Assembly (NCBI GenBank): GCA_964417675.1
Contig: CAYQJL010000282.1
Coordinates: forward strand, 68,077 to 132,076
DNA: 64,000 bases
Direction of reading: 5' to 3'
Source of the DNA: an uncultured bacterium
Lineage (GTDB): Bacteria > Eisenbacteria > RBG-16-71-46 > CAIMUX01 > WJJG01
Below the pieces are notes generated by a model. That model was not told where the DNA came from. It did no database searches and saw only the letters and a list, made by a program, of their open reading frames with translations. Numbering within the stretch: position 1 is the stretch's first letter; each line of letters starts with the position of its first letter. Shown in pieces: positions 8,171 to 63,840 of this stretch. A program made the translations under genes and the position numbers.

Positions 8171-8208
8171 TCCTCGGTGGTCCTCGGTGGTCCTCGGTGG
8201 TCCTTGGC
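8171..8208. repeat. 10-bp tandem repeat, 3.8 copies (TCCTCGGTGG)
   Basis: Direct reading. Sits in the 58-nt spacer between the ABC ATPase stop and the permease start. Confidence 0.8.
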
Positions 8209-8210
8209 CG

Positions 8211-9023
8211 TCAACGCACCGTCGCGGTGCCGCTCACGCGCTCATCCGACACCAGGAATCCATCGCGCAAACGCAGCACCCGCTGGGCGCGCCGGGCGAT
8301 GTCCTCCTCATGAGTCACCAGGATGACCGTCTTTCCCTCGGCCGCAATGCCATCGAAGGCGGCCATGATGTCATCGCCGGTCTTGGTGTCGAGATTTCCG
8401 GTAGGCTCATCCGCCAGGACCAGGCTTGGTTCGGTGACCAGGGCGCGGGCGATCGCGACCCGCTGGCGCTCGCCGCCGGAAAGCTCGTTCGGACGATGGT
8501 CGGCCCGGCTGGCCAGTCCCACGATCTCGAGCGCCCGGCCGGCTCGGCGGCGGCGCTCCGCAGCGCTGACCCCCGCATAGACCATGGGCAGTTCCACATT
8601 CTGGAGGGCCGCCGCCCGCGCCAGAAGGTTGAAGGTCTGGAAGACGAATCCGATCTCGCGCCCGCGGAGGCGGGAGAGCTCATCGTCATTGAGGGCCCGG
8701 ACATCGGTTCCTCGAAAACGATATCGGCCGCTCGAGGGCGTGTCGAGGCAGCCGAGCAGATTCATCAGGGTCGACTTCCCCGATCCAGAGGGCCCCATGA
8801 TGGCCACATACTCACCGACCGCAATGGTCAGATCGATGCGCTTCAAGGCCTCCACAGCCAGTTTGCCCTGCCGGTACGTCTTGGAGACGCCCGACAGCTC
8901 GATCAGGCGCTCACGCTCGCCGGCCGTCCGGGCATCCGGCCGGCGAGCCAGCCGGGGCGCCGGCCGGATGCCGGCTTGTGCCGCAGCATCCGTCACATCC
9001 GTCACATCCGTCACATCCGTCAC
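8211..9023 (-). CDS. ABC transporter ATP-binding protein (MacB/LolD type)
   Basis: Walker [10 protein letters not shown], signature [15 protein letters not shown], Walker [13 protein letters not shown]. The N-terminus encoded from ATG 9023 contains an in-frame 9-bp tandem repeat ([12 protein letters not shown]), so the true start is uncertain. Confidence 0.85.
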
Positions 9024-9024
9024 G
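8986..9024. repeat. 9-bp tandem repeat, 4 copies (GTCACATCC)
   Basis: Direct reading. It is in frame at the annotated 5' end of the ABC ATPase gene, where it encodes (TDV)4. Confidence 0.8.
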
Positions 9025-9080
9025 CCTGTTCCTCCCTACGCCCCCCGGGCATGAGCGCCTTCCAGCGGAGGCGGGCCGCG

Positions 9081-61021: not shown

Positions 61022-62536
61022 TCAGCCCCCCCTCACAGTCGACGGCCGCTCGGCGGGAGGCAGTTCGAGGATCAGGGCCGCCCCACCCCACCGGCTATCC
61101 TCAATCCGGACCGTCACCGCATTGCGCTCAGCCAGTTGTCTGACCAGCGCCAGCCCCAGTCCCGCCCCTTTGGCTCGGCCCGTTTGAAAGGGCTCGAATA
61201 CGATCGCGCGCAGATCCGGGGCGATTCCAGGACCATTGTCGGCAATCTCCAGGCGCACGGCGTGCCCGGCCGGTGTCTCTTTCATGCGCCATGACACCGC
61301 CAGGTGTCCCGAGGGTCCGGCAGCCTGCATGGCATTGCGCACCAGATTCAGAACCATCTGCCGCAGGTGATCCGGATCGCACCAGACGGAGAGCTCCGGG
61401 CCGTCCTGGCCGGTTTGCCCCTCGAACGACAGTCCCAGCGCGGCATTCTCGATGCATTCGCGAACCAAAGGGCCGATCCTCACGATTCCCGGCGATGGCT
61501 CCTTGGGACGGGCAAACTGCAAGAAACTACTGACGACCCGCTCCAGCCGCTCCCCTTCGGCCAGAATCCGCCCGGCCTGGCGGCGCTGCCTCTCTCCCAG
61601 GCTCTGGTCCCGCGACAGCATCTCACTCGAGAGAATCAGCCCCCCCAGCGGATTGCGGATCTCATGGGCCACCCCCCCCAGCATGGCCCTCAATTCCCGC
61701 TCCCGGTCGCGTACCGCCGAGCGCATCTGCTCGAGCGTTCGGGCCAGCACGCCGATCTCGTCGCCGCCCAGGTCGGGCACCGGTCGCTCAAGGCTGCCAC
61801 GGCCAATGTCTCCCGCCGCCGCGGCCAGCAGCCGCAACCGGCGGTTGAGCCGGCGGGCCAGCAGGACCGCGACCGCCATGAGAAGCAGTGTCCCGAGTAG
61901 CGCGATGCCGACCATGGTCCGGCGCATGCCCCCGATCGCCTCGAGCGAACCGGACTCGGCCGACACCAGAATCACGGCTTCCGGGGGGGGGGCAAGACCC
62001 GTACGCTCCGCTGCCGGAGTCAACTCGTCCGGGACCGTCGCGGGGGTGCTGAGCGAGATGCCGGCCAGTCCGATCTTCACGAAACGGCCGGACTCACTGC
62101 GAAGGAGAGGGCTGGAGGCTACCGCCCCGGCGCGAACCTGGCCGAGTTCACGGTCGAGCAGAGCCGCCCGGGCGGGCACATCACCCAGCCGGTACCGACC
62201 GGAAGTCTCGATGAGCACCTGGCCCTCGGGCGACCACACTCCCAGCCAGTCGGCCGCAATCTCACGCCGGATGCCCTCCAACCGCTGACGCAGCGACTGA
62301 GCGGTCCGGCTCTGGTCCTCTCCCGGCTCCAGCCGCATCAGGCCTTCCCAAGCCGCCGGCGAAATCGCCGCCCGCACCGTCGTGGCAAGGGCTTCGACCC
62401 GCAAGGTCATCTCGGCATCCAATGCCCGGCGGGCTTGACGCTCCAGGAGGAAACCGATGGCGAGCAAACAGGGAAGCGCGGCGGCCAAGAAGGCCCAGAA
62501 CAACTGGGCTCCCATTCCGCGTGGCACAGTCCGCAC
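61022..62536 (-). CDS. Sensor histidine kinase
   Basis: TM sensor region, HAMP, HisKA H-box (GGVAHEIRNPLGGL), HATPase (NLVRNAMQA...DNGPGI...GLGLAL). Confidence 0.85.
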   Translation of the reverse strand: MRTVPRGMGAQLFWAFLAAALPCLLAIGFLLERQARRALDAEMTLRVEALATTVRAAISPAAWEGLMRLEPGEDQSRTAQSLRQRLEGIRREIAADWLGVWSPEGQVLIETSGRYRLGDVPARAALLDRELGQVRAGAVASSPLLRSESGRFVKIGLAGISLSTPATVPDELTPAAERTGLAPPPEAVILVSAESGSLEAIGGMRRTMVGIALLGTLLLMAVAVLLARRLNRRLRLLAAAAGDIGRGSLERPVPDLGGDEIGVLARTLEQMRSAVRDRERELRAMLGGVAHEIRNPLGGLILSSEMLSRDQSLGERQRRQAGRILAEGERLERVVSSFLQFARPKEPSPGIVRIGPLVRECIENAALGLSFEGQTGQDGPELSVWCDPDHLRQMVLNLVRNAMQAAGPSGHLAVSWRMKETPAGHAVRLEIADNGPGIAPDLRAIVFEPFQTGRAKGAGLGLALVRQLAERNAVTVRIEDSRWGGAALILELPPAERPSTVRGG

Positions 62537-62584
62537 CTTTCAAGCCCCCTTCGCCATTGCGGCCAGCCTGTGCCAGGCCCCGGC

Positions 62585-63712
62585 CTATAGCCCGTGGCGG
62601 GCGAACAGCTCGCTCTTGATCCCGGCCAGGATCGAATCGATCGCGTCGTCTCCGCCCCCCAGGCCACCCATACCCCCCGGAGAGGACCAGAAATCCCTGG
62701 GCCATGGCATATGGGCAGCGACTCCCGGGAGGATCGCGGGGCGCGCCGGCAGCGGACCGGGCTTGGGCCCCTCGATCATGACCAGCCAGGCCATGGTCCA
62801 GGCTCGCATCGCATTCGCCAGATCATACCCGCCCCCGCCGACGGCCAACCAGGGAAGGTTCCACGAGCGGAATCGCTCCAGGATCGTCCACCAGTCGGCC
62901 AGCGAGACCTCGAGATTGGCCAGCGGATCACCGATCAGCAGATCGGCGCCCAACTCCGTCACCAGAACGTCCGGCCGGAAGGCCCGCAGCAACGGTTCGA
63001 TGACTTCCTCGAAGACGCGCGGGTACACCGACCCGGTCGTATGCGGCAGTAGCCCAACATTGACGGCATAGCCTTCGCCCGCCGCGCGGCCGATATCCCC
63101 TTGAAACCCCGATCCGGGAAACAGCGTTCGTCCATCCTGATGCACCGACACCGTCATGACCTGGTTGGAGGTGATGAACGCCTCCTGAACGCCATCCCCA
63201 TGATGGGCATCGACATCGACGTAGAAAACGCGCAGACCGGCATCCAGGAGGCGGCCGATGGCCAGCACCACATCATTGACATAACAGAAGCCCGACGCCC
63301 TGCCCGGAAGAGCGTGATGCAACCCGCCGCCGGGATGAAACACGCGCTGGGCGGCTTGTTCGGCGATGAGTTGGGCTCCACGCAGAGACCCGCCCCCGGT
63401 AAGGAGCACGTACTCCCAGAGGTTGGGAAAGATCGGGTTATCCCCCGAAGTGAGCCCATACGGCGCAACCCCGGGCGGCATCATCCCGGCGGAAACCTGT
63501 TCGAGGATGTCCAGATAGTCGCTGCGGTGGGCTTTGAGCAAGTCGTCCCGGTCGGCCGGCCCGAACGATTCCTTGCGATTCCCGGCATCATCGAAGAGTC
63601 CGAGCTGCGTGCAAAGATAGTCCGTCAGCCACAGGCGCTCGAGACGAAAGGGATGGGTCATCCCGTAGTTGTACTGGACGACCGCCTCATTGTAGAGAAA
63701 GACCTTCTGCAC
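62585..63712 (-). CDS. Histone deacetylase family protein (AcuC/acetoin-utilisation-like)
   Basis: HDAC motifs (GFCYVNDVVLAI, DVDAHHGDGVQEAF, charge-relay HH). GTG start at 63712. Confidence 0.85.
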   Translation of the reverse strand: MQKVFLYNEAVVQYNYGMTHPFRLERLWLTDYLCTQLGLFDDAGNRKESFGPADRDDLLKAHRSDYLDILEQVSAGMMPPGVAPYGLTSGDNPIFPNLWEYVLLTGGGSLRGAQLIAEQAAQRVFHPGGGLHHALPGRASGFCYVNDVVLAIGRLLDAGLRVFYVDVDAHHGDGVQEAFITSNQVMTVSVHQDGRTLFPGSGFQGDIGRAAGEGYAVNVGLLPHTTGSVYPRVFEEVIEPLLRAFRPDVLVTELGADLLIGDPLANLEVSLADWWTILERFRSWNLPWLAVGGGGYDLANAMRAWTMAWLVMIEGPKPGPLPARPAILPGVAAHMPWPRDFWSSPGGMGGLGGGDDAIDSILAGIKSELFARHGL

Positions 63713-63721
63713 CCTGTACCT

Positions 63722-63840
63722 CTCTCGAACAGACCGCTATACGACAGGCCCGAGGCGCTATACGACAGGCCCGAGGCGCTATGCGACAGGCCCGAGCCGC
63801 TATGCGACAGGCCCGAGCCGCTATACGACAGGCCCGAGGA
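63722..63840. repeat. 21-bp tandem repeat, 5 copies (CTATRCGACAGGCCCGAGSCG)
   Basis: Direct reading. Lies between tRNA-Leu and the HDAC gene start. On the minus strand every unit carries an in-frame TAG. An ATG at 63844 opens an 8-codon uORF (MLLGPVV). Confidence 0.85.

What the first reader, a model, noticed from the sequence alone, without database searches (positions are those of the whole stretch)
8171..63840. Family of unrelated short tandem-repeat arrays located just 5' of genes
At least seven arrays with different unit sequences and lengths occur in 64 kb:
- 10 bp at 8171
- 9 bp at 8986
- 12 bp at 24780
- 20 bp at 31895
- 18 bp at 41829
- 36 bp at 57477
- 21 bp at 63722

All lie in the short spacers immediately upstream of minus-strand gene starts or at their 5' ends. 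None has spacers, so they are not CRISPR. They are not REP or IS ends either, because each unit is unique.

Five of the seven have unit lengths divisible by three and stay in frame with the downstream gene. This suggests promoter-proximal or N-terminal variable-number repeats acting as contingency loci or transcription-factor binding arrays.
Basis: seen in the sequence. Interest (0 to 1): 0.7.

Follow-up and report, generated by a model that had tools for sequence, protein, structure and literature searches.

The report
Strain-variable minisatellites in intergenic spacers
The window carries an unusually dense set of unrelated short tandem-repeat arrays that gain and lose whole units between near-identical strains and are absent from a sister species, so they are young slippage-generated VNTRs in non-coding spacers, not a conserved regulatory system.

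Summary
All seven arrays are real, with small coordinate shifts. The "36-bp" unit is 35 bp. TRF finds 13 arrays scoring at least 50, against about 0.8 in shuffles and about 1.7 per 64 kb in 2.3 Mb of unrelated genomes.

Six of the seven lie in the 9% of the window that is non-coding. Only the 9-bp array is coding: its four GTG codons are the only possible starts of an ABC ATPase gene. "Upstream of minus-strand genes" says little, because 41 of 47 spacers separate co-directional minus-strand genes. The arrays sit no closer to starts than to the preceding stops.

The organism is an uncultured, 66% GC bacterium, apparently related to Candidatus Eisenbacteria, found in Mahoney Lake sediment. Against near-identical metagenome contigs (52.9 kb aligned), every indel falls in an array:
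- 9-bp array: 3 versus 4 copies
- 20-bp array: 4.3 versus 5.3 copies
- a coding 24/25-bp repeat: rearranged

A 97%-identical strain has 1.4 versus 3.4 copies of the 10-bp unit. A syntenic sister species has none of the four arrays in its orthologous spacers.

Verdict: these are independent VNTRs produced by slippage, and their variability is shown. Contingency-locus or binding-array function is not shown and is partly contradicted.

The parts
8171..8204 (-). A1: 10-bp unit (mRNA sense CCACCGAGGA) x3.4. It lies in the 58-nt spacer between the ABC ATPase stop and the MacB-like permease start. It begins 6 nt after the stop and ends 18 nt before ATG 8152. Each unit carries an SD-like GAGGA.
   Evidence: The copy number is variable: a 97%-identical ENA strain (L093) has 1.4 copies of CCACCGCGGA, and the JGI contig has 3.4.
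8987..9023 (-). A2: 9-bp unit (GTGACGGAT) x4.1, encoding (V/M)TD x4. It holds the only possible start codons of the ABC ATPase ORF 8211-9023. An SD sequence GGGAGGA lies 6 nt before the first GTG.
   Evidence: The 3-copy allele is seen as DNA in JGI MLSed_10000066 and Logan SRR1179191. The 4-copy allele is in the window and ENA L093. Protein alleles of 267 and 270 aa are on record.
24777..24956 (.). A3: degenerate 12-bp unit x14, with a higher-order 36-bp period. It is non-coding and lies in the 464-nt spacer between the GGDEF gene stop (25115) and the PD40/Tricorn/Omp85 gene, 126 nt upstream of the real start (ATG about 24650, followed by a signal peptide).
   Evidence: Homology to the orthologue starts at the signal peptide. 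The JGI contig has the same copy number with one SNP inside the array. The array is absent from the sister species spacer.
31894..31999 (.). A4: 20-bp unit (mRNA sense ACGGGCGATGACCGGCCGCA) x5.3. It fills most of the 151-nt rny-folD spacer, starting 17 nt after the rny stop and ending 28 nt before the folD start at GTG 31865.
   Evidence: The JGI allele has exactly one unit fewer and lacks the GGAC-variant unit altogether. The Logan unitig breaks inside the array. The sister species spacer is 87 nt with no repeat.
41841..41904 (.). A5: 18-bp unit x3.6. It is non-coding and lies 49 nt upstream of the PAP2-M23 gene start (ATG 41791), in a 266-nt divergent spacer shared with a yfiH-like gene (42058, + strand).
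   Evidence: The start codon is fixed by the orthologue alignment and by the JGI gene call of 644 aa. The JGI contig has the same copy number. The array is absent in the sister species.
57478..57567 (.). A6: 35-bp unit x2.6. It begins 7 nt after the stop codon of the hypothetical gene 57575-58666 and lies 219 nt upstream of the next gene start.
   Evidence: The JGI contig has the same copy number.
63735..63839 (.). A7: 21-bp unit x5, with unit variants in the order A A B B A. It lies between tRNA-Leu(gag) and the deacetylase gene, ending 22 nt before GTG 63712. The tRNA-proximal unit is the 3' arm of a strong hairpin that follows the tRNA.
   Evidence: The hairpin folds at -36.1 kcal/mol with z = -4.3. 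Copy number is identical in Logan SRR2989655 and JGI.
17757..17846 (+). Extra array: 24/25-bp repeat inside the disordered C-terminal tail of a PatA_N/DUF4388 protein (16646-17953).
   Evidence: The JGI allele differs by in-frame indels and substitutions, giving 434 versus 435 aa.
36425..36461 (.). Extra array: 16-bp unit x2.4 in the spacer between the AIR-synthase-like gene stop (36494) and tRNA-Val.
   Evidence: The orthologous region of the sister species has no array.
51536..51571 (-). Extra array: 15-bp in-frame repeat (TPTLD x2.4) in the N-terminal extension of ribosomal protein S1. A 24-bp repeat at 49346-49410 lies in the C-terminal tail of the same protein.
56065..56090 (.). Extra weak array: 12-bp unit x2.2 immediately after the yjbQ stop codon, in a convergent spacer where both flanking genes end. 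It is therefore not upstream of any gene.

Best explanation
The arrays are independent, locus-specific minisatellites (VNTRs) with units of 9-35 bp and 2-14 copies. They lie in the chromosome of an uncultured, 66% GC bacterium, probably related to Candidatus Eisenbacteria in the FCB group.

**How they arise (inferred).** Each array began as a local tandem duplication. It now expands and contracts by whole units, through slipped-strand mispairing at replication or possibly unequal sister-strand recombination.

**Why they sit where they do (inferred).** Arrays persist only where they are tolerated. That means the 9% of the DNA that is non-coding, and in-frame positions in disordered protein termini. 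In this window nearly all genes are co-directional on the minus strand, so this tolerance pattern makes the arrays look as if they sit just 5' of minus-strand genes.

**Their likely effects (inferred).** They are evolutionarily young and mostly neutral or nearly neutral. Any effect on expression is a by-product, not a conserved regulatory design. Possible by-products are changed stop-to-start spacing, extra SD-like motifs in A1, and the multiplied start codon with a variable (VTD)n N-terminus in A2.

**Shown:** tandem structure, excess over chance, confinement to non-coding DNA, whole-unit polymorphism, and absence from a sister species. **Inferred:** the slippage mechanism and near-neutrality.
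For: **Real and in excess**
- 13 arrays score at least 50, against 0.8 in shuffles.
- 11 arrays score at least 60 with period at least 9. Two unrelated baselines give 1.83 per 64 kb (1.30 Mb) and 1.57 per 64 kb (0.98 Mb).
- The same genome just outside the window has two more perfect arrays in 10 kb.

**Whole-unit polymorphism**
- 52.9 kb aligns to Mahoney Lake metagenome contigs with about 17 SNPs. Every indel lies in an array.
- A2 has 3 versus 4 units. The 3-unit allele is confirmed independently as Logan DNA.
- A4 has 4.3 versus 5.3 units. The JGI allele lacks the variant-bearing unit, so this is not collapse of identical units.
- The coding 24/25-bp repeat is rearranged in frame.
- A 97.3%-identical ENA strain has 1.4 versus 3.4 units of A1.
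- Arrays cover 1.4% of the window, so three independent indels all falling inside them has p of about 3e-6.

**Young**
- A sister species (RNase Y 81% identical) is fully syntenic across the 21.5-kb locus that runs from the end of mutS to the PD40 gene. It has no array in the spacers orthologous to A3, A4, A5 and the 16-bp array.
- A 70%-identical relative has one array in 21.5 kb.

**Location explained by tolerance**
- Non-coding DNA is 9.2% of the window, yet holds 8 of 13 arrays.
- All 5 coding arrays have periods compatible with the reading frame and lie in termini, low-complexity tails or, for one weak 15-bp duplication, inside a glycosyltransferase-HAD fusion gene.

**No sign of a shared function**
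- There is no shared sequence and there are no dispersed copies.
- RNA folds of the arrays are unremarkable: z = -0.2 to -1.1, with A3 at -2.6.
- No Rfam family matches them.
- No promoter-like sites overlap them.

**Mechanism in the literature**
- Whole-unit gain and loss by strand slippage or recombination is the accepted behaviour of tandem repeats (PMC3899988).
Against: - Four of the seven arrays (A3, A5, A6, A7) showed no copy-number difference in the one or two other assemblies available.
- All comparisons are between short-read metagenome assemblies. For the 106-bp A4 array, an assembler artefact cannot be fully excluded without the reads.
- The density is about 6-fold above baseline, and ordinary slippage alone does not explain it. 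It hints at a lineage-specific mutational bias or at selection.
- Several arrays sit in functionally sensitive places: start codons (A2), an intercistronic spacer with SD-like motifs (A1) and the rny-folD junction (A4). Expression effects are therefore plausible and were not tested.
Confidence: 0.78

Rival explanations
1. The arrays are selected expression "tuning knobs", or contingency loci in a broad sense. Unit gain or loss in promoter, 5'-UTR or intercistronic DNA would modulate transcription or translation of the downstream gene. This would resemble the promoter tandem repeats of Mycobacterium tuberculosis or Neisseria.
For: - A1, A2 and A4 show copy-number variation.
- A1 multiplies an SD-like GAGGA in an intercistronic spacer, and A2 multiplies the start codon.
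- A4 forms a chain of 7-codon mini-ORFs whose TGA stops overlap the next ATG. The chain ends at an ATG in frame with folD.
- Density is about 6-fold above baseline.
- Promoter tandem repeats whose copy number changes expression are documented (PMC12817950, PMC3899988).
Against: - The sister species manages without any of the four arrays that could be compared.
- Most neighbouring genes are housekeeping.
- No array lies in a recognisable -35/-10 spacer.
- No array can frameshift an ORF.
- A6 and the 12-bp array at 56065 lie at gene 3' ends.
- The ATGA chain follows arithmetically from any 20-nt unit that contains ATGA.
Confidence: 0.14
2. The arrays are iterated binding sites for DNA-binding proteins, such as transcription factors, nucleoid proteins or iteron-like sites.
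For: Direct repeats with 10-21-bp periods could place sites on the same face of the helix. A3 has 14 copies upstream of an outer-membrane protein gene.
Against: - Each unit is unique, so each array would need its own binding protein.
- The arrays are absent from orthologous spacers in a syntenic relative.
- Periods of 9, 12, 16, 18 and 35 bp do not fit the helical repeat.
- No regulator gene is consistently adjacent.
Confidence: 0.04
3. The arrays, or their copy-number differences, are assembly artefacts of short-read metagenomics.
For: - All sources are short-read assemblies.
- Logan unitigs and JGI contigs break at or near arrays.
Against: - The same arrays appear in four independent assemblies: the window, JGI, Logan and ENA.
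- A1 and A2 are only 34-37 bp long, shorter than any read.
- The A4 alleles differ by a unit that carries a unique SNP.
Confidence: 0.03

Closest known systems
Bacterial VNTR / minisatellite loci as used in MLVA typing (for example Xanthomonas, Burkholderia, Mycobacterium; PMC4045669, PMC3899988)
   Same: - The units are locus-specific, roughly 6-100 bp, and arranged head to tail.
- Most arrays are intergenic.
- Close strains differ by whole units.
- The accepted origin is slippage or recombination.
   Different: - The host is an uncultured, free-living sediment bacterium rather than a monomorphic pathogen.
- The local density is unusually high: 11 arrays per 64 kb against about 1.7 in the baselines used here.
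Promoter tandem repeats of Mycobacterium tuberculosis (dop, lpdA, cysG; PMC12817950)
   Same: - The arrays are variable-copy repeats upstream of housekeeping or metabolic genes.
- Alleles vary among close lineages.
   Different: - In M. tuberculosis the repeated unit contains the promoter, and an expression effect has been measured for lpdA.
- Here no promoter is identified in any unit, and no expression data exist.
MIRU (mycobacterial interspersed repetitive units; from my own knowledge, Supply et al. 1997 and 2000)
   Same: - A1 and A4 lie in intercistronic spacers of co-directional genes.
- A4 carries small ORFs whose stop codons overlap the next start codon, which recalls the start/stop overlaps of MIRUs.
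   Different: - MIRUs are one dispersed family of 40-100-bp units shared by about 40 loci.
- Here every unit is unique to its locus and there are no dispersed copies.
Simple-sequence contingency loci of Neisseria, Haemophilus and Campylobacter (phase variation; PMC3899988)
   Same: Both are hypermutable repeat tracts close to gene 5' ends, with whole-unit changes.
   Different: - Contingency loci use 1-7-nt units that frameshift ORFs or alter -35/-10 spacing of surface or restriction-modification genes.
- Here the units are 9-35 nt, the one coding array is in frame, and the neighbouring genes are mostly housekeeping.

Membership tests
VNTR / minisatellite | Head-to-tail copies of a unit with no intervening spacers, in excess of chance | tested here: met
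   TRF. 13 arrays observed against 0.8 in dinucleotide shuffles.
VNTR / minisatellite | Copy number differs by whole units between closely related genomes | tested here: met
   - A1: 1.4 versus 3.4 copies.
- A2: 3 versus 4 copies.
- A4: 4.3 versus 5.3 copies.
- A3, A5, A6 and A7 were identical in the one or two genomes available, so they remain undetermined.
VNTR / minisatellite | Unit specific to the locus, not a dispersed element | tested here: met
   No unit occurs outside its own array in the window, and the units are not similar to each other.
Contingency locus (phase-variable simple-sequence repeat) | Unit change frameshifts an ORF or alters -35/-10 promoter spacing | tested here: not met
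   - The only coding array among the seven (A2) has a 9-bp in-frame unit.
- The other six are outside ORFs.
- No sigma-70-like promoter overlaps an array. That scan does not cover other promoter types.
Contingency locus (phase-variable simple-sequence repeat) | Association with surface, host-interaction or restriction-modification genes | tested here: not met
   The neighbouring genes are an ABC ATPase and permease, folD and rny, a deacetylase, a tRNA and hypothetical genes. Only the PD40/Omp85-like and PAP2-M23 genes encode envelope proteins.
Contingency locus (phase-variable simple-sequence repeat) | High-frequency reversible ON/OFF switching of a phenotype | not testable with these tools
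   This needs cultures, or deep long-read population data together with expression data.
CRISPR array | Repeats separated by unique spacers of similar length | tested here: not met
   The units abut directly.
REP / BIME / MITE dispersed repeats | Many dispersed copies of the same, usually palindromic, unit | tested here: not met
   No dispersed copies were found. The folds of the arrays are unremarkable.
Conserved cis-regulatory binding-site array / iterons | Conservation of the repeated motif at the orthologous position in relatives | tested here: not met
   The sister-species spacers orthologous to A3, A4, A5 and the 16-bp array contain no repeats.
MIRU | One shared 40-100-bp unit family present at many intercistronic loci | tested here: not met
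   Every unit is different and measures 9-35 bp.

The most novel reading that the evidence does not exclude
This lineage, unlike its syntenic sister species, has acquired a genome-wide propensity for intergenic minisatellites. The extrapolated rate is roughly one array per 5-6 kb, or several hundred per genome.

One possible cause is an altered replication or repair function. The other is selection for arrays as heritable, rapidly mutable expression tuners of ordinary housekeeping operons in a free-living sediment bacterium. Candidate examples are start-codon multiplication in the ABC ATPase gene and the chain of ATGA-coupled mini-ORFs between rny and folD.
Probability: 0.1. Interest if true: 0.6.

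Novelty: new member of a known kind. Interest (0 to 1): 0.27.

Why it matters
**Practical uses**
- These loci are ready-made strain markers, comparable to MLVA loci, for tracking populations of an uncultured Eisenbacteria-like bacterium in metagenomes.
- They explain why short-read assemblies of this organism break at particular spacers.
- They warn annotators that gene callers place false starts inside such arrays. The JGI call for the PD40 gene starts inside A3.

**Biological question**
- The arrays are about 6-fold denser here than in the baselines, and a syntenic sister species lacks them. This poses a modest question about what controls minisatellite birth rate in bacteria.

**Limits**
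- Nothing here points to a new molecular system.

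Tried and rejected
**Searches that gave less than hoped**
They returned almost only distant relatives (at most 56% identity, plus one at 70%). They served only as baselines for repeat density.
- Exact-protein look-ups failed for the ABC ATPase, FolD and the 369-aa hypothetical protein. For the ABC ATPase the 270-aa form exists only in hidden or very short contigs. For the other two the cause was not established; my chosen start codons may differ from the recorded gene calls.
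- The contig of an 88%-identical relative (L092) ends 8 nt after the rny stop codon. It could not show whether that relative has an array there.

**Ideas rejected**
- *Candidatus Aegiribacteria MLS_C as the source.* That genome is 59.6% GC and the window is 66% GC.
- *Structured RNA.* Rfam finds only three tRNAs and 6S RNA. The z-scores of the array folds are ordinary.
- *Promoter overlap.* The promoter scans found nothing.
- *Hairpin flanks as a general trigger of slippage.* Only A7 has a complementary flank.
- *A special design behind the ATGA mini-ORF chain in A4.* It follows arithmetically from a 20-nt unit containing ATGA, and no SD sequence precedes the ATGs.

Full report
**Observation**

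TRF confirms all seven arrays close to the stated coordinates:

| Array | Coordinates | Unit | Copies | Unit identity |
|---|---|---|---|---|
| A1 | 8171-8204 | 10 bp | 3.4 | perfect |
| A2 | 8987-9023 | 9 bp | 4.1 | perfect |
| A3 | 24777-24956 | 12 bp, higher-order 36 bp | 14 | 71% |
| A4 | 31894-31999 | 20 bp | 5.3 | 90% |
| A5 | 41841-41904 | 18 bp | 3.6 | 95% |
| A6 | 57478-57567 | 35 bp, not 36 | 2.6 | 98% |
| A7 | 63735-63839 | 21 bp | 5.0 | 95% |

The excess is real:
- The window has 13 arrays scoring at least 50 and 10 scoring at least 60. Thirty dinucleotide-preserving shuffles give means of 0.8 and 0.1.
- For arrays with score at least 60 and period at least 9, the window has 11. 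For score at least 100 it has 5.
- Ten kb of the same genome just outside the window holds two more perfect arrays, 30 bp x2.2 and 15 bp x2.9.
- The density is therefore about six times a typical value.

**Gene context**

The window is a housekeeping stretch of a diderm bacterial chromosome at 66% GC. In order along the window it carries:
- glycine cleavage genes, uvrA and a MacAB-HlyD-TolC-like exporter
- TonB/ExbBD genes, a PD40/Tricorn/Omp85-like protein, a GGDEF protein, recN and xseAB
- folD, rny, 6S RNA, zapAB, the infC-rpmI-rplT cluster, a PAP2-M23 fusion and mutS
- rpsA, a cmk-plsC fusion, scpAB, an NtrC-type two-component pair, a deacetylase and three tRNAs

With curated starts, 9.2% of the window is non-coding. 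Of its 47 spacers, 41 lie between co-directional minus-strand genes.

**Anatomy of each array**

- **A1** occupies 34 of the 58 nt between the ABC ATPase stop codon and the permease ATG at 8152. Its mRNA-sense unit CCACCGAGGA carries an SD-like GAGGA.
- **A2** is (GTGACGGAT)x4.
  - In the gene frame these four GTG codons are the only start codons between an upstream stop and the conserved ATPase core.
  - A GGGAGGA Shine-Dalgarno sequence sits 6 nt before the first GTG.
  - The array therefore multiplies the start codon and encodes an N-terminal (VTD)n.
- **A3** is non-coding.
  - Homology to the orthologue begins at a signal peptide (MRRRPMGMGRTGSANGLRLLLLAALTLL...AQA). This places the start near 24650, 126 nt downstream of the array.
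  - The conceptual peptide changes register inside the array, from VPGD to CLET.
  - The JGI gene call that starts inside the array is probably wrong.
- **A4** fills the rny-folD spacer. Both the orthologue and the JGI gene call start folD at GTG 31865, which has a GGAGG Shine-Dalgarno sequence.
- **A5** lies 49 nt upstream of ATG 41791 of the PAP2-M23 gene. That start is fixed by the orthologue and by the JGI call of 644 aa.
- **A6** begins 7 nt after a stop codon and lies 219 nt from the next start.
- **A7** lies between tRNA-Leu and the deacetylase GTG at 63712.

Only one of the seven arrays is coding. The claim "five of seven, in frame" fails: four units are divisible by three, and frame is meaningless for three of those four.

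In co-directional spacers, the distances to the downstream start and to the upstream stop are:

| Array | To downstream start (nt) | To upstream stop (nt) |
|---|---|---|
| A1 | 18 | 6 |
| A3 | 126 | 158 |
| A4 | 28 | 17 |
| 16-bp array | 86 | 32 |
| A6 | 219 | 7 |
| A7 | 22 | 38 |

There is no bias toward the start codon. One weak array, at 56065, sits in a convergent spacer and so is upstream of nothing.

The five coding arrays have frame-compatible periods (9, 24, 15, 24, 15). Four lie in protein termini or low-complexity tails. The fifth is a weak 15-bp duplication inside the glycosyltransferase-HAD fusion gene.

**Source organism**

- Exact-protein look-ups place the same organism in JGI metagenome 3300001533 (contigs MLSed_10000029 and MLSed_10000066). 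They also place it in the Logan assemblies of SRR2989655 and SRR1179191.
- SRR2989655 holds the Mahoney Lake sediment reads (PMC4846661).
- The best named RNase Y homologues, at 69-73% identity, are from Candidatus Eisenbacteria MAGs. A PorV gene lies nearby.
- The organism is not Candidatus Aegiribacteria MLS_C, which is 59.6% GC.

**Strain comparison, the key test**

The window aligns to the JGI contigs over 18.2 + 20.4 + 14.4 kb, with about 17 SNPs in total. Every indel lies in an array:
- **A2** has three units instead of four. An independent Logan assembly of SRR1179191 confirms the 3-unit allele at the DNA level.
- **A4** has one unit fewer. The JGI allele lacks the GGAC-variant unit altogether, so this is not simple collapse of identical units.
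- **The coding 24/25-bp repeat** is rearranged in frame.

Protein cluster look-up shows both the 267-aa and the 270-aa ATPase alleles.

An ENA contig from another sample is 97.3% identical to the window. It has four A2 units but only 1.4 units of A1, with the unit sequence CCACCGCGGA.

A3, A5, A6 and A7 had the same copy number wherever they could be compared. Arrays cover 1.4% of the window, so three independent indels all landing inside them is very unlikely by chance (p of about 3e-6).

**Sister species**

- A relative with 81% identical RNase Y was recovered from several ENA and Logan samples. It is gene-for-gene syntenic across the 21.5-kb locus that runs from the end of mutS to the PD40 gene, and is 65% GC.
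- Its only TRF hit there is a weak 21-bp x2 inside rny.
- The spacers orthologous to A3, A4, A5 and the 16-bp array are plain sequence. Its rny-folD spacer is 87 nt, against 151 nt in the window.
- A 70%-identical relative has one array in 21.5 kb.
- The arrays are therefore young and lineage-specific, and they inflate the spacers that hold them.

**Other tests**

- The units are unique to their loci and are not similar to each other.
- RNA folds of the arrays are ordinary, with z from -0.2 to -1.1 and A3 at -2.6.
- Rfam reports only three tRNAs and 6S RNA.
- No sigma-70-like promoter overlaps an array.
- Only A7 has a complementary flank. Its tRNA-proximal unit forms the 3' arm of a strong hairpin after tRNA-Leu, at -36.1 kcal/mol and z = -4.3.

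**Interpretation**

The evidence fits ordinary bacterial VNTRs or minisatellites. A local duplication is followed by whole-unit gain and loss, through slipped-strand mispairing or recombination (mechanism as reviewed in PMC3899988). Arrays persist only where selection tolerates them.

Three other parts of the reading are not supported:
- that the arrays form a family tied to gene starts
- that they are in-frame N-terminal repeats
- that they are transcription-factor binding arrays

Strict contingency-locus membership fails on two defining features: frameshift or promoter-spacing logic, and the class of associated genes.

A softer "tuning knob" role cannot be excluded. It would resemble the promoter tandem repeats of M. 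tuberculosis (PMC12817950). It is most plausible for A1, A2 and A4, and I give it about 0.14.

The unexplained residue is the roughly 6-fold excess in density compared with unrelated genomes and with the sister species.

**Verdict**

These are new members of a known kind: strain-variable minisatellites in an uncultured lineage. They are useful as strain markers and as an annotation caveat, and they are of modest biological interest.

Noticed in passing
window 31886-31999 (minus strand): Each 20-nt A4 unit contains GATGA. Every ATG therefore opens a 7-codon mini-ORF whose TGA stop overlaps the next unit's ATG. The last mini-ORF ends at TGA overlapping ATG 31886, which is in frame with folD (probable true start GTG 31865). 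This recalls MIRU-style start/stop overlaps, but it follows arithmetically from a 20-nt unit containing ATGA.
   Followed up: partly
window 63812-63871 (minus strand): A strong hairpin lies immediately 3' of tRNA-Leu(gag), at -36.1 kcal/mol and z = -4.3, with 0 of 200 shuffles folding as well. Its 3' arm is the first unit of the 21-bp array, so each of the five units could pair alternately with the single 5' arm.
   Followed up: partly
window 33643-33822 (minus strand): A 6S RNA gene (Rfam RF00013, 50.3 bits against a gathering score of 46.4) lies between zapA and rny.
   Followed up: no
window 24884 / L082 20224: The JGI gene caller starts the PD40/Tricorn/Omp85 protein inside the 12-bp array, giving 1123 aa. 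The signal peptide and the orthologue alignment place the start near 24650. Arrays that happen to stay open in one frame attract false start calls.
   Followed up: yes
window 49270-51618 (minus strand): Ribosomal protein S1 is 782 aa long, with low-complexity acidic extensions at both ends. These include a run of ten Asp residues and the repeats TPTLD x2.4 (N-terminal) and a 24-bp repeat (C-terminal).
   Followed up: no
window 51726-53021, 39858-41791, 17950-19530 (minus strand): There are three gene fusions: cytidylate kinase with an acyltransferase (cmk-plsC), a PAP2 phosphatase with an M23 peptidase, and a family 9 glycosyltransferase with a HAD phosphatase.
   Followed up: no
L085 6302-6367 and L084 20674-20717 (same genome, just outside the window): There are two more perfect arrays: 30 bp x2.2 between tpiA and secG, and 15 bp x2.9 in a 45-nt spacer between two small genes. 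The high array density therefore continues beyond the window.
   Followed up: partly
window about 17700-18830; L083 end at 31938; L092 end: Short-read contigs of this organism and a relative end at or beside repeat arrays. The Logan contig L174 starts at 17706, next to the 25-bp repeat. The Logan contig L083 ends inside A4. The contig of an 88%-identical relative ends 8 nt after its rny stop codon, which hints at a repeat there too.
   Followed up: partly
window 36030-36230 (minus strand) versus L092 100-300: The leader upstream of infC is conserved between the window and an 88%-identical relative. It includes a terminator-like hairpin followed by a T-run (GAGAAGCGGTCTAGGCCGCTTTTTTTG). It may be an infC-rpmI-rplT regulatory leader. 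A sigma-70-like promoter (TTGACA-17-TAAGAT) precedes tRNA-Val at about 36370-36402.
   Followed up: no
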